Shown one piece after another: positions 33,871 through 60,141 of a stretch of DNA of 64,000 bases. A program made the position numbers and the translations under genes. Each line of letters starts with the position of its first letter. Within the stretch, counting starts at the first letter, position 1. The notes beneath the pieces are model-generated. The model was not told the DNA's origin and searched no databases. It worked only from the letters and a program-made list of their open reading frames with translations. Origin of the DNA: a bacterium (lineage in GTDB: Bacteria; Zhuqueibacterota; Zhuqueibacteria; Residuimicrobiales; Krinioviventaceae); the NCBI GenBank assembly GCA_963693055.1, contig OY843751.1, positions 4,160,001 to 4,224,000 of the forward strand, read 5' to 3'.

Positions 33871-33872
33871 AC

Positions 33873-33905
33873 AAAAATCCCCCCAGCTTAACCACTGGGG
33901 GGATT
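33873..33905. terminator. Terminator between convergent genes
   Basis: AATCCCCCCAG-cttaacca-CTGGGGGGATT perfect 11-bp stem, with a U-tract on the minus strand. Confidence 0.8.
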
Positions 33906-33972
33906 GATAAATTCACATCTAATTTTCAAATCTCTTTTTTACTCTTTACGTCAGCCCTATTCCATCTCGTAT

Positions 33973-34000
33973 GCCTACTAATAACTGATTACTGATAACT
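33973..34000 (-). repeat. Heptamer tandem array (AGTTATC-type) abutting a stop codon
   Basis: TGA aa AGTTATC AGTAATC AGTTATT AGTAGGC. Confidence 0.75.
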
Positions 34001-34002
34001 TT

Positions 34003-35802
34003 TCACTTTCCATGAAACAACAATTCAGATGGTATCTCTCTTTTTTCAAATCCCGGTCCCTGCCAGGTCAATTTCAAATTCTGTCCGCCAGCCATCTGAA
34101 AATATTTACACTGAATCTTGTGTTTGCCTTTTTTCAATGCAATGGATGTGGACATTTCATAGCTTCCATGACCCCCGTCATTATTGATCACCAGTTTGTC
34201 ATCGAGCAACAGTACACTGCCATCGTTCGATTCCAGATATAGAGTATACTGCCCATCCTGCGGAACAGCCACATATCCATTAAAAATAAACGCGTAATCA
34301 TAATCACGACGACGTTTGTCAATATTGAATCCGTCAAGAGTACCTGAAGAAACAAAAGGCAGCTTTTCTATCTGATCACATCGTGAGGCACTTCCTTCAA
34401 AATACTGATAAAAAATCCCGGAGCCCGGTTCAGAATCTAACACCAAAGCCTGTTGATACACATCACTGCCAACATATGCGGAAACAATCCTGCTGGGTGG
34501 CTTGCCCGGTGCAAATGCCTGCATCAGCAGCGTCGTTGTACCGGTAACAGTAAACGGTTTATCATAGACTGTGCCATCGGTCAAAGATGGTAGACTTTCA
34601 TCCAGCGTATAACGAATAACGGCTCTATTTTCACATTCCAGCTCAACAATACCGTTTTTATCTCTTTTAACCACAGGCTCTGCTGTGTCATCCGAATAGA
34701 TCCAATCCATACTCAACCGGGTTAGCTGTATGGTCTCTAGCCCGTTACTGGTGCGTCGGTTTCCAGCACAATGTCCCAGCAGCACATGGTCATCTACAAA
34801 TTCTATAGCTGTATAGCAATACCAGCCATAAGGATCGCTTTCAACTGTTTTAATCTTTTTCCAGGTTTTTCCATCATCCGACGACAATGCAAGATTATAG
34901 GGTGTACGCTTGCCGCCATCGAGTGCGTCTTCATAATTATTGTTCCATAACAGCAATAAATCACCCGTAGACGGAATGCGCTCTATCGATGCAGGTGAAA
35001 GCGGGGACTTTATATTACCCGGCTCTAAAGTGGACCATGTCTCTCCCCTATCAGCTGACCAGGTAAAATATTGCACACCGGCATCGGTTCGACAAAACAT
35101 TAAGAGTTTGCCGGAATTCAACTCGATGATCCCCGGTTCCTGGGTAACAACTTTATTAGGATTCGCGGCAACGCTGCTTTTATGAAAGGTTACACCATTA
35201 TCGTCCGAGTAATAACTCATAATACGGGCAACAGGACTATGAAAATTTTCATCTACATGCAGAGCCACAGGCAGTAATATCCTGCCATCTTTTAACTGCA
35301 CCACACGGTCATTATTCATTACAAAATAACCGTCATCCTGAATCATCCTCCGGGGTTCTCCCCACGATTTTGCTTCATCTTTGGAAATCCGCATATACGG
35401 TACACAATCGGTTTCAGAATTCTTGCGTAAATAAATCAATGCAATTTCACCACTGTTTAACCGCAGCATGGAAACTGACATGATATTCATGCCCGCCTCA
35501 TTGGCTACAATCAAACTATCGGTTTGGGTCCAGGTACTGCCTTTATCATCTGAATATCGACCGGCAAGGTAAGCACTGTCATTGTCTCCATTACCACCGG
35601 TAAAATGGGTGTACACGAATAAAATACGACCATCTTTTAACGTAATAAAATCACCTTCACTGTTGCGGAAATTATCAGGACCCGGTTCCAACCTCAAAAC
35701 CACCTCTTTTCCGGGATGAGGAACTACTTTATTCATACCACAGGATTGCAATACTACTGCCATCAAAACCATTACTGTTAACAAATACCACTTGAATTTC
35801 AT
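34003..35802 (-). CDS. Lipoprotein: BNR/Asp-box sialidase-like (GH33-like) propeller + Fn3-associated + PA14
   Basis: LQSC lipobox; SDDKGSTW, SKDEAKSW, SDDNGVTF, SADRGETW and SDDGKTW Asp-boxes; IRYTLD; YLESNDGS...NDGGHG PA14. Confidence 0.85.
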   Translation of the reverse strand: MKFKWYLLTVMVLMAVVLQSCGMNKVVPHPGKEVVLRLEPGPDNFRNSEGDFITLKDGRILFVYTHFTGGNGDNDSAYLAGRYSDDKGSTWTQTDSLIVANEAGMNIMSVSMLRLNSGEIALIYLRKNSETDCVPYMRISKDEAKSWGEPRRMIQDDGYFVMNNDRVVQLKDGRILLPVALHVDENFHSPVARIMSYYSDDNGVTFHKSSVAANPNKVVTQEPGIIELNSGKLLMFCRTDAGVQYFTWSADRGETWSTLEPGNIKSPLSPASIERIPSTGDLLLLWNNNYEDALDGGKRTPYNLALSSDDGKTWKKIKTVESDPYGWYCYTAIEFVDDHVLLGHCAGNRRTSNGLETIQLTRLSMDWIYSDDTAEPVVKRDKNGIVELECENRAVIRYTLDESLPSLTDGTVYDKPFTVTGTTTLLMQAFAPGKPPSRIVSAYVGSDVYQQALVLDSEPGSGIFYQYFEGSASRCDQIEKLPFVSSGTLDGFNIDKRRRDYDYAFIFNGYVAVPQDGQYTLYLESNDGSVLLLDDKLVINNDGGHGSYEMSTSIALKKGKHKIQCKYFQMAGGQNLKLTWQGPGFEKREIPSELLFHGK

Positions 35803-35838
35803 AACCTACCCGTTCTTTTAATAATTATTAATCTTCAC

Positions 35839-35988
35839 CAGTGCCCGAGTGCCCCGAACTTGCTTCGGGATGTATCAACGGCCCGGTGCTTCTCATCGCC
35901 CAACTCCAGCTAACAGTTTATAGCTAACAGCATTACCATCTTTCATCTTTTTGGGCTACTGACAACTGATAACTGATTACTGATAACT
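35839..35988. repeat. Composite intergenic repeat (REP-like hairpin + heptamer arrays), duplicated at 37821-37986
   Basis: GTGCCCGAGTGCCCCGAACTTGCTTCGGGATG...TTCTCATCGCCCAACTC...CTGACAACTGATAACTGATTACTGATAACT. Confidence 0.75.
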
Positions 35989-35989
35989 C

Positions 35990-37789
35990 TTATTCTCCAT
36001 GAAACAACAATTCAGCAGGGATTTCAGATTTGTCAAAACCGGGACCTTTCCAGTTTAATTGCAAATCTAATGCACCCGCCATCTGAAAATACTCGCACTG
36101 CAATTTATGGTTTCCTTTTTTTAATGCTACTGTTGCATCTACTTCATACTTGCCGTGTCCACCGTCATTGTCAATCAGTAGTTTATCATTAATATAGAGC
36201 ATACTCCCGTCATTGGATTCCAGATAAAATGTATATTGCCCATCCTGCGGAACATCCAGATATCCATTAAAAACAATTGCGAAATCATTTTTTCGTCTGC
36301 TTGGTTCCAGATTGATCTCCGACTGAATCCCGGAAGCGACCAATTTCAACGTTTCAATTTGTTCAGCTCTCGAAACAGTCCCCTCATAATATTGATAAAA
36401 CAAGCCGGGACTCAAGTCTGCATCTAACTTGAAAGCTTCCTGATGCACATCACTGCCAACATTTGCATGAACAATCTGACTGGGCGTCTTTCCGGAAGCA
36501 AATGCCTGCATGAGCAGCGTTGTTGTACCGGACACCTCAAATGGACCCTTGTAAATATCACCATGTGTTAAAGTAGGAATACTTTTATCCAGCGTATAAC
36601 GGACCATTACATCCACATCATCACAGGTCAATTCTATAGACCCGTTTTTATCTTTAACGACCCGCGGGTAAGCCGTTGCATCAGCATAAATCCAGTCATA
36701 ACTCAAACGTGTGATCTGTATGGTTTCCAGCCCATTGCTTGCCCTTCTATTTCCAGCGCAGTGACCCAACAATACAGAGTCATCTAAAAATTTAATCGCT
36801 GTATAACAGTACCAACCATGAGGATCACTCTCCAAGGTCTTGATCTTTGACCAGGTTTTCCCTTCGTCTGATGAGATGGCCAGATTAAAGGGGGTACGCT
36901 TGCCACCGTCCAATGCATCTTCATAATTGTTATTCCAGACCAACAAGAGATCACCTGTTGATGGGACCCGTTTCATTGATGCGGGTGAAAGCGGAGACGT
37001 TATATTGCTCTCCTCAAACGGAGTCCAGCTCTCTCCTCGGTCTTTAGAGTAAGAAATGACTTGCTTACCAATTAAGGTTCTGCAAAATAAAAGAATTGTT
37101 CCATCTCTCAATTGGATGATTCCTGGCTCTTGAACTACTATGTTTTGAGGATTTGGTACGTATTTACTTTTGTTAAACGTAGCACCATTATCATCAGAAT
37201 AATAACACATAATTTGACCTTTTTCACCAGTAACCGGATGGCCTCCCCATCCTACGGGTACAATAATCCTACCATTTTCAAGCTGGATGACCCTGTCATT
37301 ATTTATAGTATAATAACCCGGCATTGTAACGCATTTTTGAGGTGGTCCCCAAGTCTCGGCTTCGTCACGTGAGATTCTCATATGTGGGGCACAGTCTGAT
37401 GAAGAATTTTTAATTGCGTAAAACAATGCAATTTCACCAGTATGTAGCCTCAATAAAGAAACGGCCATTACATTCATCCCTCCTTCATTGGCTACAATCA
37501 AACTATCAGTTTGGGTCCAAGTACGGCCTTTATCATCTGAATATCGACCCGCAAGGTATGCACTGTCATTATCGCCATTACCACCGATAAAATGAGAATA
37601 TACAAACAGAATTCGACCGTCCTTTAATGTAATAAAATCACCTTCACTGTTGCGGAAATTATCAGGACCCGGCTCTAACCTCAAAACCACCTCTTTACCG
37701 GGATGAGGAACAATATTTTTTGTCCCACAGGATTGCAATACCATTGACATCAAAACCATCACTGTTAACATATACCACTTTAATTTCAT
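35990..37789 (-). CDS. Paralogous BNR sialidase-like + PA14 lipoprotein
   Basis: Same length (599 aa) and architecture as 34003-35802; near-identical N-terminal ~100 aa. Confidence 0.85.
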   Translation of the reverse strand: MKLKWYMLTVMVLMSMVLQSCGTKNIVPHPGKEVVLRLEPGPDNFRNSEGDFITLKDGRILFVYSHFIGGNGDNDSAYLAGRYSDDKGRTWTQTDSLIVANEGGMNVMAVSLLRLHTGEIALFYAIKNSSSDCAPHMRISRDEAETWGPPQKCVTMPGYYTINNDRVIQLENGRIIVPVGWGGHPVTGEKGQIMCYYSDDNGATFNKSKYVPNPQNIVVQEPGIIQLRDGTILLFCRTLIGKQVISYSKDRGESWTPFEESNITSPLSPASMKRVPSTGDLLLVWNNNYEDALDGGKRTPFNLAISSDEGKTWSKIKTLESDPHGWYCYTAIKFLDDSVLLGHCAGNRRASNGLETIQITRLSYDWIYADATAYPRVVKDKNGSIELTCDDVDVMVRYTLDKSIPTLTHGDIYKGPFEVSGTTTLLMQAFASGKTPSQIVHANVGSDVHQEAFKLDADLSPGLFYQYYEGTVSRAEQIETLKLVASGIQSEINLEPSRRKNDFAIVFNGYLDVPQDGQYTFYLESNDGSMLYINDKLLIDNDGGHGKYEVDATVALKKGNHKLQCEYFQMAGALDLQLNWKGPGFDKSEIPAELLFHGE

Positions 37790-37820
37790 ACCATGCCCGT
37801 TCTTATAATTATAATATTAA

Positions 37821-37986
37821 CCGGTGCCCGAGTGTCCCGAACTTGCTTTGGGATGCATCAAAGGCCCGATAAAACTCTCCAGCCCGGTGCTTCTTTCTCA
37901 TCGCCCAACTCAAGCCAACAATTTATTGCTGACAGTTAATAGCTTTACCGTCTTTTATCTTTATGAGCTACCGACAACTGATAACT
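37821..37986. repeat. Composite intergenic repeat, copy 2
   Basis: GGTGCCCGAGTGTCCCGAACTTGCTTTGGGATG...TCTCATCGCCCAACTC...CCGACAACTGATAACT. Confidence 0.7.
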
Positions 37987-40900
37987 CACCTTGGCTTTAA
38001 CGCCCAAAGATCCGAAAACGGCTGCCTCTCCATTCCCGGTCCCTCTATCTCAATTTCCATACTTTCCGTTCCGCCGTTCTCATAGTACAAGATGTCAATA
38101 GCATGACGTCCCTCATCCAGGTTTACACTGCCATCCAGGAAGCGGATTCCTCCTTCGGGTTCATCATCTACCACAACTTGCCCATCAACGGATACAAAAC
38201 AACCGTCATTGGCCTTGGCATAAAATGTATATTTACCCGCGGTCTTGACCTCATAGTCAAACCGGAACCGGATTCCCACAAAATCCCCCCGACGTTTGAT
38301 CTTGTTTACATCCAGTTCATAGGTTATACCCGTAGATACTTCCCTCACCTGGCTCCAATCGGGATAGCCTTCCCATTCACCTTCATATACCGTATACGCA
38401 ATGCCCTGCACCCGGGGATCAACAAAACGGATCTTGTCGGTCTTGTCATAACTATCCCAAAATCCATCTTTTACTGCAATAGCCCTGATCGTGGTCTCAT
38501 CCCAAATCTCAATGGGTCCCTTGTATTTTTCCGATTCGGTTGTCGGCAGACTGCTATCCAGAGTATAATAAATATCCGCATCATTGCTTGCGGTAATCTC
38601 TATCCGGGCCGCGTCCGGTTTGTGGTACAGCGTATCGGCTTTGGCAATAATTGGCACAGGCAAATGAACGATTTTGATCAACTCTGTTGCGCCCTTTGAA
38701 ACAAACTGATATTTACCGGAACCAACTTTATAGATCACTGCCTGTTTGTCCGCCTTGACAAACTCTGCAGGCCCCTTGTTAACAGATACACTTTCTCCAT
38801 CCACAGCGGGTACATACACAGTAGCAGTCGTATTTGCAGGGATCTCTATATCCATAACGAGATTATCCTTTTTCAACTTCCAATGGCTTTTGATCATACC
38901 ATATATCGACTCGTATTCACCTTTTACAAATGTCAAATCACCGCACAGTACGGGTTTGATGATAACGTGCTTGAATCCGGGATCCACAAGATCAGGATTA
39001 ATACCTGCCAACGCTTTAAAAAACCATTTGTCAATACTGCCAAACATGGGGTGACTGTGCGAGCTGTGGCCGTCCCAGTCTTCCCACAAGGTTGTAACAC
39101 CCTTGCCCAGTATATAGTATCCAAACCCCGGATAATCACTCTGGTTCATCACGCTGAATGCCAGGTCTTCTCGTCCCATTTCTGTCAACGATTCCAACAA
39201 CAATGGTGTTGCCAGTATACCGGTATCCAGATGGCCCCGGTTCTCTATCACATTTTCGGCCATACTTTTAGAAACACCTGCAATATTGTCCTGCTCTACC
39301 ATCCCAAACGCCAGTGGAAAAGTATCTGCCCCCTGGTAGCTGGTCCAGTATCGTTGTTCTTTTGCATCATAGTAATGCTTGTTAAAATCGTTTTTTATAT
39401 GTTCAGCAAGTGTTGCTAGTTTTTGATGGTCCTGGTCATTTCCCAAAATTCCGGCAATTTCAGAAACCGTTTTTGCGCAGAAATAATAATAGCTGGTATT
39501 CACCAACGGTGCCGGAAGTTCCAATGGGGCCGGCGGACACCAGTCGCCCAACGGACTGTCACCGGGATTTTCATGCATCACCAGTCCGTTCTTGTCCGTT
39601 CCCTTGCCCAAAAACTCAACCCAGTGTTTCATACCTTCATAATGCTTTTCAAGCAGAGTTGTGTCCCCGTAATAAAGATAATAATACCAGGGAACCACAA
39701 CAATTGCCGAACCCCAGGCAGGACCGCCGCCGCCACCCTCATAAGGAGCGGTATGCGGAACAAATCCGGTTTTCTTGTCTTGCGCGTCATCAATGTCATT
39801 CATCCACTTGCGGTAAAACCGCATCATATCAAAATTAAATATAGAACCTTCTACCAAAAGCTCTCCGTCACCGGTATATCCTAAACGCTCACGGTGCGGA
39901 CAATCACTGCTGAAACTACTGTGAAAGTTGCCCAGTTGTGTCCAGATGTAATTCCAGTGTATCTTGTTCAACAGTTCATTGGAACAATGAAAATACCCAG
40001 TTGTATCCACTGCAGTGTTTACAACCCGCCCTGAAATACTGTTGATATCCAGCGGAACAGATGAGCCTTTGATCTCTACCGTACGAAACGCATGCCAGCT
40101 GAATCGCGGCTCCCAAATCTCGGTACCGCCTTTGCAGATATAATGATCGATCTGGCTAAAATCGCTGCCCAGCTCCTCATTATGGATGATTCTCAAGGTA
40201 TCTCCACGGTTCCCCTTTATATTCAGACGTACCCACCCCGTAAACATTTGCCCAAAATCATAAACATAGGTATTCTCTTTTGTGTGTTTGACAGAGACCG
40301 GTTTCAAAGTAGCCACTATTCCATCCCGTGGTGCCAGTTGCGGATGCAATACTCCATCCGGTGCATTCAACAGCTTGGCTTGCTGCCATCCCGAGGCATC
40401 GTAACCTGCCTTGTTCCATCCGGACATTTCCATACGTGCATCATAATGCTCACCAGTAAAAATATAATCATAAAGGATTGGTCCGTCTGTACTGAATTGC
40501 CAGCTTTCATCGCTTATAATGGTTTGTTTTTCGCCATCCAGGTATTCGATCTCGATCTGCATAATAAATCGCGGTGTATTGTACCAGACCCAGCCGGCGG
40601 GATCACGATGTCTACGATTATACCAGCCATTCCCCAGCACAATGCCTACAGCATTGCACCCTGCATGCAGCTGCTCGGCAATATCATAAATATTGTACAA
40701 AACCCGTGTTGACGAATTTTTGTCAAAATCATAAACACGATTATTATTTACCCGCTTTTGATAGTGGGTTTGCGCGGGAACCAGTACATCGTCTCCGGTT
40801 TTGGTCCCATTAATAGACATTTCATAATAACCCAAACCGCTCACATAAACGCGGGCAGTTTCAACAGGCTTGGTTATATTAAATTCTTTGCGGAACCAAG

Positions 40901-41393: not shown

Positions 41394-41532
41394 ATTTTTC
41401 CTTTTGGATAAGAGAGGTGTGTAATTTTTTAGAATAAAATCATTTTTTACGAAAAAATCAAGGAGTATAATTGTACGTAATTTTTAGAGAAATTGAATTT
41501 TCTAATTGTCGTTTTATTGCAGGAAAAAAATT

Positions 41533-42077
41533 TTCAGTTATCAGTTCTCAGCTTTCAGTATAGCAGCCCCCGTTTTTTCTGACTACTGATAACTATTCAG
41601 AAATCATACTATCGCTCTGCAATCCGCTGGCGAACGGACACTCTGGAACCGGGCCTCGTTTTTTTCTGATAACTGACAACTGATTACTGACGACTTGATA
41701 CTCTGATCGCTCGGCATATTCATCCGGGCGGAATATTCATCCGGGACATTCGTCCCGCTGGCTTTTACTTAATGAACCTCACGGTAAAACCTTAATCCAG
41801 ATGTTTAAATTAAGGATAAACAGAGTTTATCCTCTCATTTCCGCCCAAAACCAGAGTTTTGGACAGAGTTACCAGTTTCATCCGTGTAAATCCGTGCCAA
41901 TCCGTGGCTAAATAAATGGGTTCCAAGGCAGAGCCTTGGAACCAGATAATATATAAAGTTTTGGACGGAGTAATATCGAGCGAGATATTCGGCCCTTTAC
42001 CTTCGATACTTCCGCCCGCCAACAGACGGACAGATACTCTGGAACCGGGCCTCGTTTTTTTCTGATTACTGACTACT
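41533..42077. repeat. Mosaic of short palindromes, heptamer and nonamer arrays, bounded by a ~40-bp direct repeat
   Basis: ACTCTGGAACCGGGCCTCGTTTTTTTCTGAT at 41640 and 42036; several hairpins; ATCCGTG nonamers at 41880-41906. Confidence 0.75.
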
Positions 42078-42083
42078 TTGGCC

Positions 42084-45000
42084 TCACGGCAAAATCATCC
42101 ACGACGGTGGGAACGCCTGTTTTTCGTATCCCGGTCCCTCAAAATAAAAATCCATGGATTCAGAGCCAACAACCTCATAATAGAACAAGTCCAAATCATG
42201 GCGCCCTTTGTCCAACTGGATCTTGCCGGAATTAATACGTTTAGCATGCGCGCCTGCGTCATAAACAATCGTCTTGCCGTCTATTTTCAACACACATCCG
42301 TCATTGGCATCACCATAAAAGGTATAAACACCGGGTGTCATAATATCAAATTTTCCGGCAAAACGGATTGCCACCTGATCACCCCGCCTGTCAATCTTGT
42401 TTACATCAAACTGAAAGGTTTTACCGGTAGATGCCACTTTAAAATCATAGGTCTCGGGATCCGGACCCAAATCACCCCACTCTCCATGATACACAGTATA
42501 CGCAATACCATTCACAGCAGGATCAATAAAACGTACATTTGCAGATGCAGGATAACTGGTTATAAATCCCTCTTTGACCATAATCGCCTGAATGGTGCAG
42601 TTTTCTTTAATCTCAACCGGACCTGTATATTTTGCAGATTCCACAGTAGGCTCGCTTCCATCCAATGTGTAATATATATCCGCATTGTTTGTAGCCCGAA
42701 TGGGGATGTACGCAGCATCATGTATGTGATACAATGTGTCCACCTTGTCAATAATCGGTACGGGTAAACGGACCGGCTTAATCAGTTCAGCAGCTCCCTG
42801 AGAGCTAAAAGTATATTTTCCAGAACCCACTTTATAAACCGCTCTATTGTCCTCTGCTCTGACAAATTGGGCGGCATCACTATTCACAGACACCCGCTCC
42901 TTATCCGTTGCAGGTACATATATTGTTGCCGTTGTATTGACAGGTATGTCCACATCCATTTTCAGGTTGCCCTTTTTATCGAGCTTCCAATGGCTTTTAA
43001 TCATACCGTAAAACGATTCTGTTCCGGCGTTCACATAGGTCAAATCCCCACAAAGGACGGGCTTGATGATGATGTGCTTGAATCCCGGATTTTCAGGATC
43101 CGGGTTAATACCCGCCGGTGCCTTAAAGAACCAACGAATTGTGCTTCCGTACATAGGGTGACTGTGCGAAAGCTTGCCGTCCCAATATTCCCACAGCGTG
43201 GTAACGCCTTTGCCAAGGATATAGTGACCATAGCTGGGAAAATCATGCTGGTTCATCATCATAAACGCAAGGTCTTCTCGCCCCATTTCCGTCAGCGTTT
43301 CCATTACAAGCGGCAAACCCAAAATACCGGTATCCAGATGTTCACGATTTTTAACAACATTCTCGACCAAGCTCTCAAAAACGCCATCAACATTCTCTTC
43401 TTTTACCATACCAAATGCCAACGGAAACGCATCCGCGCCCTGGTAACTGGTCCAGTATTGTTGATTTTTTTCATCATAAAACCGCTTGTCCAGTGCTGTT
43501 CCTATCATTTCCATGAGGGCCAAATGCTCATCGCGGTCAGCGGTTTTACCCAGTATGTCCGCGGTCTGAGCCACCAGCTTTGCACAGAAATAATAATAAC
43601 TGGTATTTACCAATGGCTCGGGGAGTTCAAGTGGAGCGGGAGAAGCCCAATCTCCCAGGCACCATGCGTTTGGTTCTTCCCGAACGACAATTCCATCCTT
43701 GTCTGTGCGAGTGCCCAGGTATTCCACCCATTGCTTCATGCCTTTATAATGTTTCTGCAATATTTGTGTATCACCATAATATACATAATAGTACCAGGGA
43801 ACAATCACATATGCCGAACCCCACGCGGGGCCGCCGCCTCCACCTTCATACGGAGCGGTATGCGGAACAAATCCGGTTTTCTTGTTACGGGCATCGTCAA
43901 TATCGTTCACCCATTTGTCATAAAACCGGGTCATATCAAAATTAAAAATGGACGATTCTACCAGAATCGATCCGTCACCGGTATAACCCAAACGTTCACG
44001 GTGCGGACAATCACTGCTAAAGCTGCCATGCATATTACCCAACTGGGTACGAATGTAATTCTCATGGATCTTGTTAAACAGCTCGTTCGAGCAGTTGAAA
44101 TATCCCACGGTATCCATAACCGTATTTACAACCCGTCCACTGATGCTGTTCAGGTCGAGTGGTACGGACGATCCCCGGATTTCTACCGTCCTGAACGCAT
44201 GCCAGGTAAAACTGGGTTCCCAGGTTTCCTGACCGCCTTTACACATATACTGATCACCCTGACTGTAGTCACTGCCCAATTCTTCTATAAAACGGAAACG
44301 CAAGGTATCTCCACGATTACCATTTATGTGTAATTTCACCCAACCCGAGAACATGTGTCCAAAGTCATAGACATATACATTATCTTCCGTATGTCTGACC
44401 GTTACCGGTTTTACCGTATTGATAATACCGTCCCTTGGGGCAAGCTGTGGTTGCAGCTTACCATCCGGTGCTTTTAACAGATTGGCCATCTGCCAACCCG
44501 ATGCATCGTATCCCGCTGAACTCCAGCCGGGCATTTCCATTCGGGCATCATAATACTCACCGCTGAAAATGCCGTCATGACGAATGGGACCCTCTGTGGT
44601 ATACTTCCAGCTATCATCACTCAAAACAAGTTGTCGCTCTCCATCGGCATATTCAATTTCGATCTGCATGATAAATCGTGGTGTATTGTACCACATTCTA
44701 CCCTCGGCACCGCGGTCACGTTGATTATACCATCCATTTCCCAGTACAATACCCACAGCATTGGCGCCCTGCTCAAGCTGACCGGTTATATCATATATAT
44801 TATAGAATATCCGGGTAGTGGATTGATCATCATAATGATAAATCAGACCCGAGAGATTCCGCTTCTCATAGTTTGTTTGCGCGGGGACCAGTTCGTCGTT
44901 ACCGGTCTCACTTCCATTCAAAAACATTTCATAATATCCTAAACCCGTCACATAAACCCGGGCTTGTTTAACAGGTTTGTCAATTTTAAATTCTTTGCGG

Positions 45001-45503: not shown

Positions 45504-45592
45504 AAGATTCCCTCAAAATTTTTACAGGTGTGTATTTTTTTTAATTAAACCAATTTTCACGAAATAAACAAGAGCAATAATTCAGCATCCTG

Positions 45593-45712
45593 GCTATCAG
45601 CATTCAGTCATCAGTTTCCAGTAAAGACTCAAGATATTGGTCTATTACAATAGTAATTGATCTAATAAATCTAGATTTTTTCCTGATTACTTACTACTGA
45701 AAACTGATGACT
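45593..45712. repeat. Element with inverted heptamer arms (MITE-like), homologous to 49246-49365
   Basis: Left arm AGTCATCAGTTTCCAGTA pairs with right arm TACTGAAAACTGATGACT. Confidence 0.65.
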
Positions 45713-45714
45713 TT

Positions 45715-49155: not shown

Positions 49156-49444
49156 AGGGTCCCTTAAATATTTAATAGGTGAGAGATTTTTTTAGAATAA
49201 AACCAATTTTTACGAAATAAGCAAGAGCAATAATTCAACCACTTGGTTATCAGTAATCTCACTCTCATCTGTTTTCATTAAAACCCAATAATTTGGATCT
49301 ATCATAATAGAATTTAATCTGATAAATTTAGTTTTTTTAAATTCTGATTACTGAAAACTGACAACATTGCTTGCCTTTTATATTTATTATACTTACCATA
49401 CCCTACTCATCATTAAACATCACAATACAGGAATACACCCGATT

Positions 49445-51100: not shown

Positions 51101-51105
51101 ATTAA

Positions 51106-51136
51106 TGTAGGGACCTGTCTTAGACCGGCCCCTACA
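51106..51136. repeat. GTAG-type REP palindrome
   Basis: TGTAGGGACCTGTCTTAGACCGGCCCCTACA; sibling at 52980-53007. Confidence 0.7.
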
Positions 51137-51163
51137 AATCCCCAATTCTTAACCAAACTTTTT

Positions 51164-51423
51164 ATCGCGATGCAGATTCCTGCATCGCGGAATATACATA
51201 TGGGACATTCGTCCCGATTAAATATCTCTCAAATTCCACAAGGGAGACTTGCAGCGTCCCTAATTCTCAAACTATGTGAAAATAAACTTGATCGCGATGT
51301 AGATTCCTACATCGCGGAATATTACTACGGGACATCTGTCCCGCTTTACTGCATCTATCCGTGGCTAAAAGCTAATAGCTTATTAATGACAGCTTTTCTT
51401 CTGAATACTGAGCACTGATAACT
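51164..51423. repeat. Two copies of a two-hairpin module plus a heptamer composite
   Basis: ATCGCGATGYAGATTCCTRCATCGCGGAATAT-N6-GGGACAnnnGTCCCG at 51164 and 51291. Confidence 0.75.
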
Positions 51424-51424
51424 T

Positions 51425-52897: not shown

Positions 52898-52979
52898 AAT
52901 TTACTCCTTAAATTGATATTTGTAAATATATTGAATATTCTTAAACGAGTCAACAATCCCAACTTGAATATTCACAATA

Positions 52980-53007
52980 TAGGGATCGGTCTGAGACCGA
53001 TCCCTAC
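52980..53007. repeat. GTAG-type REP palindrome
   Basis: TAGGGATCGGTC-TGA-GACCGATCCCTA perfect stem. Confidence 0.7.
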
Positions 53008-53155
53008 TCAAAACCTGTATTCTGCGTCCCCCCTCCTACATAAATCACATTTCCCCTCAACCATCTATGACGTGTTTTCTGACAACTAAGCACTGACTAC
53101 TGATAACTTTTCCCGGCTGCCATTTGCCTTTTGCTGTCTTACGTTAAAAAAACAC

Positions 53156-53184
53156 TTGCATCCATATAGCCAATCCACTATATT
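53156..53184 (+). promoter_or_regulatory. Sigma-70 promoter
   Basis: TTGCAT-17 nt-TATATT upstream of 53247. Confidence 0.5.
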
Positions 53185-53246
53185 AAAACAGGGATCAAGG
53201 GGCAGATTCGGAAGGACCAACATACACAATATTTAGGGAGAATGCC

Positions 53247-55763
53247 ATGAACAAGAGTAACTATCTTGTACGCATTGTATTGTTTGTTCTTTTGTATCTG
53301 CCATTTATTGGCTATCCACAACACATAACAGATATCCTAGTCAACACCGAACCGGATTCCAACGCTTTCAAAGCCACATCCACCTCTCTTCATGTGCTTT
53401 CACCTGAGAAATTTATGGTTATTTGGAATGATGACCGTAGTGATCACAGATTGGCGTGGGCAAACATCCTCAATGAAAATGCAAATATTCTTTATGATGA
53501 CTTTATGGTCCCAGGGGGAGATGACATTTCAGTTTACGAGGATAGTTATACGGTTTTAGGTTCCTACTACAACCTTACTCCCGTTATGGAAACACATGAA
53601 GGTTATTATCAACATTTCAATAGCAATCAACCGATATCAGAACCTACCTCATTATATTCCGAATATGTTGGCATGTGTGGAACAGGCTTTACAGGAGAAG
53701 GATTAGCAATGACGCGCACATCCTGGGGAAATGTCTATGTTCATAATTCGGGGGGTGCTATATATTGGGCAACACAAAATGAAATGCTGGGTACAACACA
53801 ATCCAATTGGAATATCTTTTATCATCCGGATTCATTAAGCAATAATGATAGAACAACAGATGCAGAACATTTTTCACTATTCCCATCCGCAGATAACAGT
53901 TTTGCCTGGTGTGTAATCAGTCGCTCCAATTACTGGTGGGACGGGCCCAGAGAAAACCAGTTACTTTTAAGCAAAATTGATCAAACAAGGTCAACAGAAA
54001 GCACAAAAATCATTATTAACGATACGCTTTCAACCGATTGGGGCTTTTCAAAATGGTTGCATGCTGAAACTGAAAACGACTCTTCTATTGTAATTTTCTG
54101 GGCAAAAAAAGATTCCCTCATCGAAACCCATATTGATACCAGCGGACAAGTAAAAAGTTATCAGGCGTTTCTACCTTTTCCAGAAGATAATGTAAATGAT
54201 CCCGGATATCACGAATTGTCTACTTTTCATCTGAGCAATAAACAAAACGGGACCATGTTTCTTTATATAGGTATTATAAATCAACTTAAAAAAATAACAA
54301 TTCAAAATAATCATATCACCAATATTTCTGAATCTATTACAGACTTTGAGAATTATGGTACACTCAATTTGTCAGACCGGTTTTATCAAAATCCTGCGGG
54401 AGACTTGTTTTTTGTTGCAATAAAAAATAATGATCCGGTTCTTTACAAATCTTCAGGAAGCACATTTCAACCTTGCAATAACCTGTCTTTTACCGGTAAC
54501 GGAGCAAGCCAAAACACCCCGGGGATATTCAAAAAAACCAACAACAGCTTTGCCATTAGATATACCGAGTCCGACAAATACTATAAATCCGTTTATATGA
54601 ACATGGACGGAGAAAGAGATCAACCACCATTATCCTGGCCCGTTCCCGGCAGTCTGCTCTTTAATAATGGAGAAGAGCTTTTACATTTAAATGTTGAATA
54701 TTTTAGCGGCCCGGATTATGTAACCCTGCACAAATACAACGCACTTGATGGTTCACTATTGTTGGAAAAATTCTTACGACCTCATTTAAACACATTTACG
54801 TATGGCAAATTAAATGATGATCAGTTTTTTGTTTTTCAAACGCAGCAGGATTATCAAAACAAAATTTCTATTTTCAATACCAATGGTACATTAATAGACT
54901 CATTGGTGTTTGAAAAATATAAAAAAGAACATGACGACCTGGCAATATATACCATGCCCAATGGCAAATTCTGGTTGAATGATAGAAATTTTGCCCTTTG
55001 GGACCCGATAAATAAAACGATCCGGTACACTCCCAAAGTAAAGAAATACAATACCCCACTCAACGATTCTCTGTTTTTAGATTTATCAATTAAAAAAATT
55101 CAAAACGAATACACAATTAATTTAGTTTTAATTGATACAAGCAATATCGAGTTGATGTCAAATCACATATCATTTCAAGCGGAATACGGTTCTTATACCT
55201 ACCCCATATTGATAAATGATGCCTATTTTATACTACCCTATAGAATAAACAACCAATATATGTTCAATATTTTCAACTTGAATTTGGAAACAGAATGCTT
55301 GCATCCCCAGGAAATATTCCCCAATGCGTCTCCTTATCTGACAAACTTTACGCGCAAACGCATCGGCAACCACATCGTCTTTGCCTGTACCGATGTCCGC
55401 GATACTGAAACCGGACAAAACGTCTATGCCAGCATTTTCAACATTAACGATCTCATCACCGGCATTGACGATGCCCCAATATCCCAACAGGTGCCGAGCC
55501 GGTTCAGTTTGTCCGAACCCTCACCCAATCCCAGCAGAGCGGGACAATCAATCACCTTTCAACTGGATATACATAAACAATCCAAAATGGATTTTCAATT
55601 GTACAATATCCTGGGACAGCGAATCCAGTCCTACAACCGACAGTTCAACGCGGGGCAACAGTCCGTCAGGTTCCAACTACCCAATCTGGCAGCCGGGATC
55701 TATTTTCTCAAAGCAACGGATAGCCAGCAGACCATCATCAAAAAAATCGCAGTGATACGATAA
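53247..55763 (+). CDS. Large secreted beta-rich protein with T9SS-type-A-like C-terminal sorting domain
   Basis: Signal peptide; PSPNP...LYNILGQ...LAAGIYFLK...KKIAVIR. Confidence 0.85.
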   Translation: MNKSNYLVRIVLFVLLYLPFIGYPQHITDILVNTEPDSNAFKATSTSLHVLSPEKFMVIWNDDRSDHRLAWANILNENANILYDDFMVPGGDDISVYEDSYTVLGSYYNLTPVMETHEGYYQHFNSNQPISEPTSLYSEYVGMCGTGFTGEGLAMTRTSWGNVYVHNSGGAIYWATQNEMLGTTQSNWNIFYHPDSLSNNDRTTDAEHFSLFPSADNSFAWCVISRSNYWWDGPRENQLLLSKIDQTRSTESTKIIINDTLSTDWGFSKWLHAETENDSSIVIFWAKKDSLIETHIDTSGQVKSYQAFLPFPEDNVNDPGYHELSTFHLSNKQNGTMFLYIGIINQLKKITIQNNHITNISESITDFENYGTLNLSDRFYQNPAGDLFFVAIKNNDPVLYKSSGSTFQPCNNLSFTGNGASQNTPGIFKKTNNSFAIRYTESDKYYKSVYMNMDGERDQPPLSWPVPGSLLFNNGEELLHLNVEYFSGPDYVTLHKYNALDGSLLLEKFLRPHLNTFTYGKLNDDQFFVFQTQQDYQNKISIFNTNGTLIDSLVFEKYKKEHDDLAIYTMPNGKFWLNDRNFALWDPINKTIRYTPKVKKYNTPLNDSLFLDLSIKKIQNEYTINLVLIDTSNIELMSNHISFQAEYGSYTYPILINDAYFILPYRINNQYMFNIFNLNLETECLHPQEIFPNASPYLTNFTRKRIGNHIVFACTDVRDTETGQNVYASIFNINDLITGIDDAPISQQVPSRFSLSEPSPNPSRAGQSITFQLDIHKQSKMDFQLYNILGQRIQSYNRQFNAGQQSVRFQLPNLAAGIYFLKATDSQQTIIKKIAVIR

Positions 55764-55818
55764 CCAACTCCCGTCCATGAGCGAGAATCCCTCGGGGGGA
55801 TAACTTGGAGGCAGAACA

Positions 55819-58251
55819 ATGAAAAATATTTTAAATTACTCAATACTTTTACTTTTACTAGTACATATAAATGCATCAGCACAACACATAACAGATATCC
55901 TAGTCAACACCGAACCGGACACTAACGATTTCAAAGCCACATCCATTTCTCTGCATGTGCTTTCACCGGACAAATTTATGGTTATTTGGCATGATGATCG
56001 TGGAGTTCCTGATCAGGCATGGGCAAATATCTTTGATCAAAATGGAAATGAATTATATACCCCCTTTCAGGTTCCGGGAGACACATATGTCTCGGCTGAA
56101 GATGATAAATATACCATCCTAAGTAAATATTACTCTCAATCGGGAATCTTGGAAAACTATGATTTCCAACATTTTCAAGACGATACAAATATATCGGAAC
56201 AGAAAAATATTGAATCTATTTTATATAATCCATGTGATTATTTTAATCCAATTGAAAAAATTGAACTTTATCGAACACAAGAAAGAAACATCTGGATCAA
56301 AAATAACTGTGGTTCTATAAATATTGCAGTTCAAGATTCACATTTCTCAACTCTAATTCCTGATTTTTATCCACTTTACATAGATTATTGGGATAATGAA
56401 AACAATCATGGTTACGAAGAACTCGTATCAAATTATTCGATAGCACAAAATGATGATAAAAGCCAATCATGGATGCTAACACTTCACCCTGGAGTATTTT
56501 TAGATTTAATTAACATTGACAAGCCCATCTATTCAGATTTTACAGCAAAAAAAATATATCTGGACTCTATAGATTACGATTTTGAGCAATATTGGGCAAA
56601 TGCTCAGATGATAACAGATAGCACTATCTTGTTCTTATGGGCAACAAGAGATACACTAAGAACAATACAATTTGATACCAGCAGTACTATTCTTGAAAAA
56701 CAAAATTATTATATTGGTGACGATCAATACTATAACGAAATGTTTCATATTAGTAATGAATCAAAAAATACAAGATATTTATTGGCTGGAAATCATTTCA
56801 GGTCAAGAATTATAAAGATTAAAGACGATCAGGTTGAATTTATATCTGATAGTTTTCTCGACATGACGCAATTATACAATCGTAAAATGTTTACACAGAT
56901 GTTTTTAAATAAAGAGGAAGAATTATTTATACCTGCTGTTTATAACAATCAGGCTGAATTATTTAAAATCAAAAATGATTCTATTTCACAGTTTAAAACG
57001 TTAAAAGCTCCTGATACCGGGGCCAACCAGGAATGTTCACATATTCGTCCTATTGATGATAGTAATTTCACAGTGACATTTAAGGAATCCGGGAGTACAA
57101 AAACAGTTAAAATGTCAGTAGACGGTACAATTATCAATCAGGAAATGGATTTACCATCAACTAACGGCATGTTTTTTAATAATGGAACTGAGCTGATTAC
57201 ACTTTTCAAAGACATTGAATCAAACGCTTTACAGATGGAAAAATATGATTTACATACAAATACTATACTTTTAGAAAAAGCACTGTTTGACTCTACTCTC
57301 ACTTTTTATTTTGAAAAGCTGGATGCTTCATCATTTGTTGTTTTTAATCTATTGGAAAACAGGATTAATTTTGCAGCATTTAATTCTAACGGAGAAATGA
57401 TAGATGAAACTAGTATTCTCAATCCATTTAACAACGGTGAACAATTTAAAATAGCAAAATTACCTGATACTAAAATCTGGTTTCATTCAAATTTTAATTA
57501 TTTTTTATTTGATCCGCAATCATTCAGTGTTCAGACATTTTCGGGTTTATATGGGCAATCAAAATTCTTCCCGGTTACTGAATCCAAACTTGTCAATTAC
57601 AGAAATGGTACGTTTACAATCATTGACACATCAGGATCAATCACAAAACAAACCGAAACAAATACATCATTCGAGTTTATAGAACCTTTTAGTGTTCTTC
57701 CTATTAGTGATGATACATTTTTGTTCAATTCTGCTTATTCAGCTAAATTTCAACTAATTACAACTGAATTGGAGTTTTACACACAAAGCACGCTAAGCTG
57801 TTTTCCTCAAAAAAGTTATTATAACATGACCAATTTCACAAGCAAATGTATCGGCAACCACATCGTCTTTGCCTGTACCGATATCCGCGATTCCGAAACC
57901 GGACAAAACGTCTATGCCAGCATTTTCAACATTAACGATCTCATCACCGGCATTGACGACGACCCAATATCCCAACAGATTCCGAGCCGGTTCAGCTTGT
58001 CCGACCCATCACCCAATCCCAGCAGAGCGGGACAATCGATCACCTTTCAGTTGGATATACATAAACAATCCAAAATGGATTTCCAATTGTACAATATTCT
58101 GGGACAGCGAATCCATACTTTTAACCGGCAGTTCAACACGGGGCAACAGTCCGTCAGGTTCCAACTGCCCAATCTGGCAGCCGGGATCTATTTTCTCAAA
58201 GCAACGGACAGCCAGCAGGCCATTATCAAAAAAATCGCAGTGGTTCGATAA
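55819..58251 (+). CDS. Tandem paralog of the above, same CTD
   Basis: Signal peptide ASA|Q; shared QHITDILVNTEPD start and a near-identical last 133 aa. Confidence 0.85.
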   Translation: MKNILNYSILLLLLVHINASAQHITDILVNTEPDTNDFKATSISLHVLSPDKFMVIWHDDRGVPDQAWANIFDQNGNELYTPFQVPGDTYVSAEDDKYTILSKYYSQSGILENYDFQHFQDDTNISEQKNIESILYNPCDYFNPIEKIELYRTQERNIWIKNNCGSINIAVQDSHFSTLIPDFYPLYIDYWDNENNHGYEELVSNYSIAQNDDKSQSWMLTLHPGVFLDLINIDKPIYSDFTAKKIYLDSIDYDFEQYWANAQMITDSTILFLWATRDTLRTIQFDTSSTILEKQNYYIGDDQYYNEMFHISNESKNTRYLLAGNHFRSRIIKIKDDQVEFISDSFLDMTQLYNRKMFTQMFLNKEEELFIPAVYNNQAELFKIKNDSISQFKTLKAPDTGANQECSHIRPIDDSNFTVTFKESGSTKTVKMSVDGTIINQEMDLPSTNGMFFNNGTELITLFKDIESNALQMEKYDLHTNTILLEKALFDSTLTFYFEKLDASSFVVFNLLENRINFAAFNSNGEMIDETSILNPFNNGEQFKIAKLPDTKIWFHSNFNYFLFDPQSFSVQTFSGLYGQSKFFPVTESKLVNYRNGTFTIIDTSGSITKQTETNTSFEFIEPFSVLPISDDTFLFNSAYSAKFQLITTELEFYTQSTLSCFPQKSYYNMTNFTSKCIGNHIVFACTDIRDSETGQNVYASIFNINDLITGIDDDPISQQIPSRFSLSDPSPNPSRAGQSITFQLDIHKQSKMDFQLYNILGQRIHTFNRQFNTGQQSVRFQLPNLAAGIYFLKATDSQQAIIKKIAVVR

Positions 58252-58275
58252 ACACTTTTAACGAGGTATACACGA

Positions 58276-59349
58276 TTGAAATTTGCTTTTTACATTTTAA
58301 TATTGCTCATAATTCTAATGGCGTGTTCATTACCTGTAAAAGAGGAATCCTCCGAATATTTCTATTATGAATCTTTTATTTCGCTTATTTCAATAGATGG
58401 AGAAAATTTTGAAACGCTTGTAAATCATGCCGGTGGTGCAGAAGCTTCAAGTGCGGATATATATTGGTTGGGTGATAAATCCCAATTTCTAGTCAACCGT
58501 GATGATCTATATATTTACGATCTTGAAGGAACGCTTGTTAAAGAAATCAGAATACCGGACAATATTATTGACATTGATACTAGTCCCAATGGGGATAATA
58601 TAGCTATTAGATGTGGCGGTGACAGTTCAGATTTGTACATGATTGACACAGAATCATTTGAAATGAAAAAAATCACAAATACGCCATCAATTGTCGAACG
58701 TTACCCACGTTTCTCAAGTGATGGTAAAAAAATTGTATATGTATGCGTATTTGATACAGAGGACCAGGAGAAACCAGCTATCAAATTGTATGATATGGAT
58801 TCAGACAGCTCGGTAACGCTGATAACAGTAAAAGAGGAGAACCTGCATTTTAATCCCTTTGAATCACCCTGTTTTGGCAAAGATGATAAAATCATTTATT
58901 ACATGAACAACTATAATAATGAGATCAATTACGGGGGCACTACAACGCTTTACAGTTATAATTTAATTACCGGTGAAAAACGAAAAATAGACGAGAATAC
59001 AGCCTCGGCGTCCAAAATGAAATATGCAACAAAGGGTGACCGGCTGGTTTACCTCACAAATGAACCCTTTAGAGGAATCAAAGTGTTTGACGCAAACACA
59101 CAAAACTTTTATAATTTGGGAGATACAATACATGAAGAATGTAGGGCCATTGGTCCCAATCAGATACTGAATATTAATTCACAAGGCACGCATGTAATTG
59201 CAGGAACTGATTATTGTAGCAACACCCATATATATGCAATAGACATCGAAAAAGCAGAATACAAAGAAATTGCTTTGGGTACATCACCCGCATTGAACAA
59301 AGATGACAAGACAATTTTATTCGTAAAAACATTTAAAAATAAATACTAG
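58276..59349 (+). CDS. TolB-like / PD40 beta-propeller lipoprotein
   Basis: LMAC lipobox; SPNGDNIA, YPRFSSDGKKIVY. Confidence 0.75.
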   Translation: MKFAFYILILLIILMACSLPVKEESSEYFYYESFISLISIDGENFETLVNHAGGAEASSADIYWLGDKSQFLVNRDDLYIYDLEGTLVKEIRIPDNIIDIDTSPNGDNIAIRCGGDSSDLYMIDTESFEMKKITNTPSIVERYPRFSSDGKKIVYVCVFDTEDQEKPAIKLYDMDSDSSVTLITVKEENLHFNPFESPCFGKDDKIIYYMNNYNNEINYGGTTTLYSYNLITGEKRKIDENTASASKMKYATKGDRLVYLTNEPFRGIKVFDANTQNFYNLGDTIHEECRAIGPNQILNINSQGTHVIAGTDYCSNTHIYAIDIEKAEYKEIALGTSPALNKDDKTILFVKTFKNKY

Positions 59350-59385
59350 AGTTCATTTCCTCAATACATTTATAAAGAAAAAACA

Positions 59386-59943
59386 ATGTTTTTCATCCCA
59401 TCCCCCAAAACCGTCAAATCGACCATTCTCCATACAAAATCAAATAACCCTAACCGGTTCATTGACGAGTGGAATTATCGAAAAACAAAGAGAAACAACT
59501 ATTTAAATCTGGGAAAAATTATAACTTTTTTTGTATTCCTTACTTTTGCAGGTCGAATCAGCTATACTGTCTTTTTCTCAATGTTTGACAATACAGGCTA
59601 TCAACTGGTATTACACAAAAAAGAGATCAAACTACCCTCAGCAGTTAAACAGGAGGCCCTTGCCGGTATCCGCCATCTGGATTGTGCCATTATCTCTGTT
59701 GATATTGCAGGTGCTATCCATTATCAAAACACAACCGTAAATCCTGCAATATTAAAAAAAGAATTGATAGAATGGTCGGGCAGACGACATGGAGATCCAC
59801 ACTCAATTGGTCCCAATGTCATTCTCATAATCGATAAAGACTGTAATATGGAACATGTGCATAAAGTATTTGCAGTATTGAAAGAAATTGATAAACGGAA
59901 TATCATGTACCTCGCCCGGAGCAAAAACAATATCCCGGATTAA
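59386..59943 (+). CDS. ExbD/TolR-like domain membrane protein (orphan)
   Basis: One TM; IKLPSA, ISVDIAGAIHY, VILIIDKDCNMEHVHKVFAVLKE. Confidence 0.65.
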   Translation: MFFIPSPKTVKSTILHTKSNNPNRFIDEWNYRKTKRNNYLNLGKIITFFVFLTFAGRISYTVFFSMFDNTGYQLVLHKKEIKLPSAVKQEALAGIRHLDCAIISVDIAGAIHYQNTTVNPAILKKELIEWSGRRHGDPHSIGPNVILIIDKDCNMEHVHKVFAVLKEIDKRNIMYLARSKNNIPD

Positions 59944-60017
59944 TCCCCCTTATCATATATTTACATCTTTGATTATCTGTATCCGTGTCCACCCACTGAA
60001 CTTGCGGATACCGTGTT

Positions 60018-60141
60018 GAATATATCTTCGGGATATTTGTCCCGGATTACTGTATCCATCCGTTTGAATCTGTGGCTAAAAGCTGATGGCTTATAGCTGA
60101 CAGCTAACAGCTTTTCTTCTGATAACTGCCAACTGATTACT
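60018..60141. repeat. Composite repeat homologous to 51317-51423
   Basis: GAATAT-N6-GGGATATTTGTCCCG...GTGGCTAAAAGCT...ACAGCTTTTCTTCTGA + heptamers. Confidence 0.7.

What the first reader, a model, noticed from the sequence alone, without database searches (positions are those of the whole stretch)
33973..60141. Heptamer arrays (AGTTATC)n sit immediately after the stop codons of seven minus-strand genes
Seen, in mRNA sense: 34003 TGA+2 nt (x4); 35990 TAA+1 (x5); 37986 overlapping the TGA (x3); 42084 TGA+6 (x2); 45715 TGA+2 (x4); 51425 TAA+1 (x3); 60155 TGA+13 (x3). The genes include unrelated GH28 and SDR, so duplication alone does not explain it. Units vary in the middle but keep (C)AGT every 7 nt. 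Same-orientation arrays without an adjacent stop occur near 41579, 41666, 49344 and 53079; I noticed none in the first 33 kb. They resemble cyanobacterial STRR-type heptamers. Inference: phased sites for a multimeric RNA/ssDNA-binding protein acting on 3' UTRs, or footprints of a mobile element that targets gene ends.
Basis: partly seen in the sequence, partly recalled or inferred. Interest (0 to 1): 0.7.

Follow-up and report, generated by a model that had tools for sequence, protein, structure and literature searches.

The report
Orphan arms of four-helix-bundle cassette
The 7-base repeat runs after these stop codons are real and match the repeat arms around a small gene of unknown function elsewhere in the genome; they are likely leftover landing sites for that protein's predicted five-part ring, which would link two long-unexplained features of bacterial genomes.

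Summary
The genome holds 44 strict arrays (controls 0-2), all intergenic. 19 lie within 30 nt after a same-strand stop (about 4 expected; 1 after an opposite-strand stop); replichore does not explain this. The seven sites are not independent: five follow paralogues, and two share one copied block.

The same unit forms the inverted arms around the genome's four-helix-bundle gene (TIGR02436/PF05635), 373 kb away. That cassette is present, replaced, reduced to an array or absent at one orthologous site across relatives. Arm units track the protein's clade. Only two of seven unit positions vary, and 23 of 44 arrays have four units plus a fifth AG; solved relatives are pentamers. Binding is untested, no gene remnant lies beside 42 of 44 arrays, and one relative has longer arrays.

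The unit (TAACTGA, MacGregor 2015) and the after-stop rule (Rehm 2015) are published. I did not find the link to this protein family, outside the Coxiella rRNA insert, in 8 searches. This scan found it before on much other DNA.

The parts
33977..34007 (-). heptamer array, 5 in-phase AG cores, first core overlaps the stop of the BNR/PA14 gene 34003-35802
   Evidence: kept in G001 with 6 cores
35958..35988 (-). heptamer array, 5 cores, TAA+1 after BNR/PA14 paralogue 35990-37789
   Evidence: kept in G001
37970..37986 (-). degenerate array, 3 cores, overlapping the TGA of alpha-L-rhamnosidase 37986-41393
   Evidence: longer in G001
41536..41559 (+). reverse-oriented (right-arm type) array, 4 cores, partner of 41578-41594
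   Evidence: hairpin z -2.9
41578..41594 (-). left-arm type array, 3 cores, in a gene-less hairpin upstream of gene 37986-41393
41665..41702 (-). array, 6 cores, start of a local copy of the block that follows 42061; not found at this place in G001
42061..42084 (-). array (2 full units from TGA+6) after rhamnosidase 42084-45503
   Evidence: 5 cores in G001
45599..45622 (+). reverse-oriented (right-arm type) array, 4 cores, partner of 45682-45712
   Evidence: hairpin z -4.9
45682..45712 (-). array, 5 cores, TGA+2 after rhamnosidase 45715-49155; left arm of a gene-less hairpin
   Evidence: 6 cores in G001
49343..49359 (-). array, 3 cores, in a 75%-identical copy of the 45.5-45.7 kb block; no stop behind it (points away from the lactate permease start)
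51400..51423 (-). array, 4 cores, TAA+1 after GH28 gene 51425-52897; opens a block shared with the SDR site
53078..53108 (-). array, 5 cores, pointing away from the start of gene 53247-55763
60075..60105 (-). AGCT-type heptamer array, 5 cores, following the AGT array
60118..60141 (-). array, 4 cores, TGA+13 after SDR gene 60155-60928
   Evidence: kept in G001

Best explanation
The arrays have the same unit and polarity as the repeat arms that bracket this genome's four-helix-bundle gene, and they are likely gene-less arms of that cassette that its predicted five-subunit ring would bind. Shown: the cassette is left arm, gene, mirror-image right arm, placed just after a host stop codon; it differs between relatives at one site; unit cores are constrained while two positions are free; the typical array is four units plus a fifth AG (about 30 nt). 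Inferred: each subunit holds one AG core of a single strand; the cassette and its arm-only derivatives settle right behind stop codons because the left arm marks the insertion end; arm-only copies were spread in trans over a 2-Mb region around the cassette by an enzyme not identified here, then multiplied by tandem gene duplication and copying of intergenic blocks, with slippage reshuffling the free positions. For the host they are likely near-neutral passengers, not a purpose-built 3' UTR network.
For: G000 has one array-flanked TIGR02436 gene (C1:4596706-4597071), with (AGTTGTC)x6 before it and the mirror array after its stop. The permease genes downstream of it carry gene-less versions: stop, array, short spacer, mirror array. 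At the site before the ABC ATPase, 6 of 13 genomes have gene plus arms, 2 an array only (one with a truncated upstream gene), 5 no array seen; G000 and G001 ATPases are 99% identical but their four-helix proteins 61%, with different arm units. Own left and right flanks rank top 3 of 29 for complementarity in 19 of 20 such genes, against 1 of 9 for a conserved repeat-free clade. 46 of 75 family genes with enough flank have three or more units in both arms; 61 of those 92 arms have 4-5 units; 21 of 38 measurable left arms start within -14 to +15 nt of an upstream stop (no null run). Unit similarity rises with protein identity (Mantel rho 0.35, p 0.0002, n 45). Only the free pair at positions 4-5 yields many arrays (26, against 1-5 for the 20 other pairs). 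G000 against G001, 12 arrays of equal length: 10 of 230 core positions differ, 21 of 92 free positions. Core count 3:6, 4:8, 5:23, 6:4, over 6:3, with 23 different spacer patterns among the 23; G001 mode also 5 (12 of 35 held). Closest solved relatives 2GSC (E 1e-22) and 2RLD have five chains; Xcc0516 is a homopentamer (PMC4990558 introduction). In Rehm 2015's supplement, a four-unit GGGAATC array lies 6 nt after bccP and overlaps the start of XCC0516; most Xanthomonas arrays have four units. The related Avd pentamer holds bases in crevices between protomers (10.1101/2023.10.23.563531). 8 of 9 genomes with a close relative of this protein have AG[CT] arrays, against 36 of 112 others; 3 of the 5 array-rich others checked carry an AGT-armed gene of another clade. 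40 of 44 arrays lie in 3.5-5.5 Mb; 9 of 13 clusters within 1 Mb of the cassette (p 0.01), while a REP-like family is spread more evenly.
Against: No binding or mobility was tested. No four-helix remnant lies within 700 nt of 42 of 44 arrays, so decay of whole cassettes at these sites is not shown. No target-site duplication or clean empty site was found, and the cassette encodes no known recombinase. With a stricter core the mode is 4, not 5 (23 of 44). In G118 the arrays examined have 4, 6, 10 and 12 units. G005 (96% complete) and G112 (90%) have many arrays and no AG[CT]-armed gene was found. 29 of 75 family genes lack three-unit arms on both sides, and some arms have period 6 or 8. Clade and unit are inherited together, so the Mantel result does not prove recognition; kin are not independent. 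22 of 29 orthologous sites held for G001 keep an array, which suits a host function as well. The regional window was chosen after seeing the data.
Confidence: 0.55

Rival explanations
1. Host regulon: the arrays are selected binding sites in 3' and intercistronic RNA for a ring protein (the four-helix pentamer or a host protein) that tunes stability or translation of carbohydrate and transporter operons; the cassette's own arms are autoregulation.
For: Core positions differ less (10 of 230) than flanking DNA (83-96% identity) between G000 and G001, and 22 of 29 sites persist; all seven window sites persist; strict sense polarity after stops. Deleting heptamer repeats changed recO promoter output in reporter tests (10.1101/2022.06.06.494920, passages); MacGregor 2015 proposed translational regulation.
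Against: Unit family switches at orthologous sites (AGT to AGC or GTGAAAC types); no functional theme beyond paralogue clusters (11 families); 15 of 44 point away from starts; arrays cluster near the cassette; the cassette itself is replaced between two species of one genus.
Confidence: 0.2
2. RNA hairpin role: paired arms form RNase III substrates or terminator-like stems, as in 23S rRNA intervening sequences, and solo arrays are broken hairpins.
For: RNase III cuts the Coxiella IVS at the first heptamer (PMC4990558, passages). Gene-less pairs fold well at 45590-45717 (z -4.9) and 41520-41600 (z -2.9). In 16 gene-less hairpins G-U exceeds A-C 28:9.
Against: Of six of the seven stop-adjacent sites' regions folded or inspected, only 45715 has a partner arm; 34003, 35990, 51425 and 60155 fold no better than shuffles (z -0.05 to -1.7). 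Mismatches recur at the free positions rather than compensating; cassette arms show G-U:A-C 49:44. The 28:9 excess comes from related copies on the G-rich leading strand, and some registers were wrong.
Confidence: 0.13
3. Neutral slippage: heptamers expand by replication slippage wherever tolerated, spread by duplication and gene conversion, and no protein reads them.
For: Long arrays are homogeneous (8-9 identical units) and change length between G000 and G001; five of seven window sites are paralogue copies; a slippage origin is the reading of Mrazek 2007 as reported in MacGregor 2015 (the 2007 paper itself was not held).
Against: Slippage would not confine variation to two fixed positions, give a peak at five cores with 23 different spacer patterns, fix polarity after stops, or tie units to protein clades.
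Confidence: 0.12

Closest known systems
TAACTGA direct repeats of Beggiatoaceae, Cyanobacteria and Bacteroidetes (MacGregor 2015, PMC4679880; abstract, parts 2-3 of 9 and passages read)
   Same: [quoted passage not shown]
   Different: There most sets sit just before start codons, here most sit after stops in the other orientation; the text has no occurrence of 'four helix' or 'intervening'; candidates proposed were S1, Csp and CsrA.
GGGAATC heptamer repeats of Xanthomonas and GGGGA(C/T)T of Nostoc (Rehm et al. 2015, PMC4692102; passages, section 10 and one supplement search read)
   Same: Within 50 bp after a stop on the sense strand or before a start on the antisense strand; inverted pairs; mode of four units; no replichore bias; one array sits at XCC0516, the solved pentamer.
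   Different: Different unit; read there as G-quadruplex formers, which AGTTATC cannot be; 'helix bundle' does not occur in the main text.
ORF-bearing 23S rRNA intervening sequences with S23p/PF05635 (Coxiella, Leptospira; Warrier et al. 2016, PMC4990558; introduction and passages read)
   Same: Same protein family, inverted termini, tandem heptamers before the start codon, sporadic distribution.
   Different: Here the cassette lies between protein genes; the single 23S gene has no large insert (2996 nt against a 2925-position model); most copies are arms without the gene.
Cyanobacterial STRR heptamers; REP/BIME with RAYT; MITEs (definitions recalled)
   Same: Small dispersed intergenic repeats near gene ends, few autonomous and many gene-less copies; REP-like hairpins are interleaved with the arrays in the window.
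   Different: Different units; the linked gene is a four-helix bundle, not a transposase; copies share a core and period, not a fixed sequence.
Avd of diversity-generating retroelements (10.1101/2023.10.23.563531, passages read); TRAP as a functional analogy (recalled)
   Same: Pentameric barrel similar to S23 proteins that binds about 31 nt of RNA with all five protomers.
   Different: Avd binds a stem-loop and partners a reverse transcriptase; the genome's one reverse transcriptase lies 150 kb from the cassette and no link was shown.

Membership tests
TAACTGA / long heptamer intergenic repeats | Tandem 7-nt unit TAACTGA or its reverse complement, in excess of chance | tested here: met
   44 arrays against 0-2 in controls; commonest spacer is TA
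TAACTGA / long heptamer intergenic repeats | Intergenic, oriented with respect to neighbouring genes | tested here: met
   44 of 44 intergenic; 35 of 44 nearer the gene behind than the gene ahead
TAACTGA repeats of Maribeggiatoa type | Most sets end within a few nt of a start codon | tested here: not met
   15 of 44 point away from a start, at 27-166 nt
Xanthomonas GGGAATC repeats | G-tracts able to form a quadruplex | tested here: not met
   unit profile has no G-tract
23S rRNA IVS with S23p | PF05635/TIGR02436 gene between complementary termini | tested here: met
   for the cassette at C1:4596706-4597071 only; the window's arrays carry no gene
23S rRNA IVS with S23p | Located inside a 23S rRNA gene | tested here: not met
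   cassette lies between transporter genes; 23S gene is of normal length
23S rRNA IVS with S23p | Excised from RNA by RNase III | not testable with these tools
   needs RNA data or an assay
MITE / non-autonomous transposon | Terminal inverted repeats | tested here: inconclusive
   paired arms at 9 of the loci listed; most arrays are solo
MITE / non-autonomous transposon | Target-site duplication and a cognate transposase | tested here: inconclusive
   none seen in G000/G001 alignments; no clean empty site at close range
REP/RAYT | Palindromic REP unit flanking a Y1 tyrosine transposase | tested here: not met
   two PF01797 matches at 0.37 and 5.73 Mb; no strict array lies near them
Pentameric Avd/S23p ring as binder | Protein forms a pentamer and binds the array | not testable with these tools
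   homology to five-chain entries only

The most novel reading that the evidence does not exclude
PF05635 four-helix proteins are sequence-specific pentameric rings that read one 7-nt unit per subunit on single-stranded nucleic acid; each clade has its own unit, and its activity seeds about 30-nt arrays right behind stop codons across a genome. That would give one cause for the excess of heptamer repeats in bacteria (STRR, TAACTGA, GGGAATC) and a function for a large orphan family, with hosts able to reuse the arrays as 3'-end control sites.
Probability: 0.3. Interest if true: 0.85.

Novelty: new variant of a known kind. Interest (0 to 1): 0.55.

Why it matters
Heptamer repeats at bacterial gene ends have been described several times without a partner or an origin, and the S23p/four-helix-bundle family has solved structures but no function. 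This complete genome has one array-flanked gene and 42 strict arrays of the same unit that are not its arms, so it offers a plain test: one 121-residue protein, one 30-nt ligand, a predicted step at five cores and clade-specific units as controls. The arrays themselves are a known kind of repeat.

Tried and rejected
Replichore as the cause of polarity: rejected (31 of 44 leading against 66% of genes; 13 of 19 near-stop arrays). Seven independent insertions: rejected. General RNA hairpin: only some sites fold. Sense-strand pairing signal in cassette arms: none (49:44). Four-helix remnants beside arrays: none beyond the cassette. Rfam: no match at E up to 1 in 33000-61000. Promoter and terminator scans: counts near shuffles, no terminator called on an array. 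Sequencing runs: no RNA holder listed. Four runs' contigs laid on 33500-53400 showed no interpretable joint removing an array; contigs cannot show absence. Whether the cassette region has excised forms in public runs stays open. A reverse-transcriptase link: one PF00078 match, not beside the cassette or an Avd-like gene. A per-position tally included misaligned sites and was replaced. Regex tests for other unit families in G000 were thin: AGCT arrays have no readable polarity, GTGAGAC n=4, two families n=0. A profile-based locus scan could not run because the alignment was too diverse; a single-protein scan gave 12 loci.
Full report
Observation. The seven arrays and the four extra ones lie where stated. 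The window is G000:C1:4160001-4224000 of a complete 6.5-Mb genome; an earlier scan note calls the organism KSB1-like, which I did not test. With my own gene caller (4904 of 5586 calls kept) the strict pattern (AGTnnTC)>=2+AG occurs 44 times, against 1, 0, 1 at periods 6, 8, 9 and 2, 1, 1 in Markov simulations; all 44 are intergenic. 19 of 44 begin within 30 nt after a same-strand stop and 1 after an opposite-strand stop. Placement inside each array's own gap predicts 4.3-4.7, and after dropping 7 paralogue copies it is 12 of 37 against 3.6. Strand use matches that of genes (31 of 44 leading, genes 66%). An unbiased scan finds period-7 runs after 28 of 4904 stops, against 7-14 for other periods.

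Independence. The window overstates the number of events. Two genes are BNR/PA14 paralogues and three are rhamnosidase paralogues; the four of them in the strict set fall in one BLAST family. The GH28 and SDR genes are unrelated, but 110 nt downstream of them align at 71%. Genome-wide, the 19 near-stop arrays follow 11 gene families. A further 15 arrays point away from a start codon, at 27-166 nt, and 35 of 44 are nearer the gene behind them than the gene ahead. The general rule is that arrays read from a gene boundary into the gap.

The cassette. G000 has two TIGR02436/PF05635 genes. The one at C1:4596706-4597071 has six AGTTGTC-type cores before it and a mirror array after its stop; the other has no repeats. 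The permease paralogues downstream have stop, array, short spacer, mirror array and no gene, as do the window's pairs at 45599-45712 and 41536-41594. At the site before the ABC ATPase, 6 of 13 genomes have gene plus arms (two behind a different upstream gene), 2 have an array only and 5 show none; G000 and G001 share 99% in the ATPase but 61% in the four-helix protein, with AGT arms in one and AGC arms in the other. Own flanks rank top 3 of 29 for complementarity in 19 of 20 array-type genes and 1 of 9 of a conserved repeat-free clade; two loci with cut flanks were left out and I drew the two groups. In a wider set, 75 of 84 genes had enough flank; 46 have three or more units in both arms. Unit similarity rises with protein identity, from 2.9 below 40% to 4.4 at 60-70% (n 45, one AT-only core dropped; Mantel rho 0.35, p 0.0002). 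Co-inheritance alone could give part of this. Of 121 genomes of the phylum, 8 of 9 with a close relative of the G000 protein have AG[CT] arrays, as do 36 of 112 others. Of five array-rich others checked, three carry an AGT-armed gene of another clade and two show none.

Anatomy of the unit. Freeing positions 4-5 of AGTTATC yields 26 intergenic arrays of three or more units; the other 20 pairs yield 1-5, and middle units between near-consensus neighbours keep the five core bases in 36-40 of 42 cases. Between G000 and G001, 22 of 29 held orthologous sites keep an array (44 sites in all; 15 not held; by eye, three of the seven misses have a degenerate or other-family array). In 12 arrays of equal length, 10 of 230 core and 21 of 92 free positions differ. 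Counting in-phase AG cores gives 3:6, 4:8, 5:23, 6:4 and three longer; G001 gives a mode of 5 in 12 of 35. All 23 five-core arrays differ in their spacers. With a stricter core the mode is 4, so the fair description is four units plus a fifth AG, about 30 nt. Cassette arms have 4-5 units in 61 of 92 cases. G118 departs from this, with 4, 6, 10 and 12 units in four arrays examined.

Mechanism. The closest solved relatives are five-chain entries, Xcc0516 is described as a homopentamer, and the related Avd pentamer binds about 31 nt of RNA with bases in crevices between protomers. I infer one AG core per subunit on a single strand. Whether that strand is RNA or DNA is open: G-U and A-C mismatches are equal in cassette arms (49:44), and the 28:9 excess in gene-less hairpins is confounded. 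Arrays are concentrated around the cassette (40 of 44 in 3.5-5.5 Mb; 9 of 13 clusters within 1 Mb, p 0.01, post hoc) while a REP-like family is spread more evenly. No gene remnant lies near 42 of 44 arrays, so arm-only spread or clean loss is likelier than slow decay. The mobilising enzyme is unknown; no target duplication was seen. I give 0.55 to orphan arms of a selfish cassette read by its own ring, 0.2 to a host regulon, 0.13 to an RNA hairpin role and 0.12 to neutral slippage.

What is known. [quoted passage not shown] Rehm 2015 (PMC4692102; passages, section 10, supplement search) gives the same positional rule and a mode of four units for GGGAATC, and its table lists an array 6 nt after bccP overlapping the start of XCC0516, without comment in the passages I saw. 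Warrier 2016 (PMC4990558) notes heptamers before the S23p gene of the Coxiella IVS. A Nostoc preprint (10.1101/2022.06.06.494920; passages) reports reporter effects of heptamer repeats and an unidentified partner; its supplements are closed. PMC10053308 (passages) links PF05635 to Avd. PMC5524665 and PMC8700078 (passages) only list such genes. Eight searches found no paper tying dispersed heptamer arrays to this family outside rRNA; most subscription journals are not searched, and Mrazek 2007 was not held. This scan noted the gene-plus-arms layout in 854 findings and five-unit or orphan-arm readings in others; these are unchecked notes and not evidence.

Verdict. A real feature. The repeats are a known kind. 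Their tie to the four-helix cassette is supported by comparison here, appears unpublished, and can be tested with one binding assay. Novelty: new variant of a known kind. Interest 0.55.

Noticed in passing
G000:C1:5878393-5878761; L024-L031: A second, diverged four-helix-bundle gene without repeat arms, conserved across the order; looks like a domesticated copy.
   Followed up: partly
window 33900-53200, intergenic gaps: Gaps are mosaics of several small palindromic repeat families (REP-like, 3-20 copies each in the genome) placed downstream of the arrays.
   Followed up: partly
window 34003-49155: Tandem of two BNR/Fn3/PA14 genes and three alpha-L-rhamnosidases with Fn3/PA14-type tails; each rhamnosidase is preceded by an array hairpin, so arrays may mark duplication junctions.
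   Followed up: partly
window 53247-58251: Two tandem 810-838 aa proteins with only a C-terminal sorting domain recognised.
   Followed up: no
G000:C1:4444361-4448873: A reverse transcriptase (PF00078) next to a 417-aa unknown gene and genes that look like umuDC (recalled); possibly a defence locus.
   Followed up: no
G000:C1:2797300-2798450 and 2562938: Several near-identical blocks of about 190 nt, each with a five-core AGCT array, in a long gene-free stretch near the terminus.
   Followed up: no
G000:C1:4567000-4597000 (L103, L074-L075): A run of about ten ABC permease paralogues whose gaps carry arrays of different unit families, switching between G000 and G001 at the same junction.
   Followed up: partly
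G010:C2:222273-293370 (L079-L082): Nine four-helix-bundle matches within 71 kb, several partial.
   Followed up: no
L019, L020: Family genes whose flanks have period 8 (same orientation on both sides) or period 6 rather than 7.
   Followed up: no
G000:C1:4555627-4558622: Only one 23S rRNA match in a 6.5-Mb genome, 38 kb from the cassette, with no large insert.
   Followed up: no
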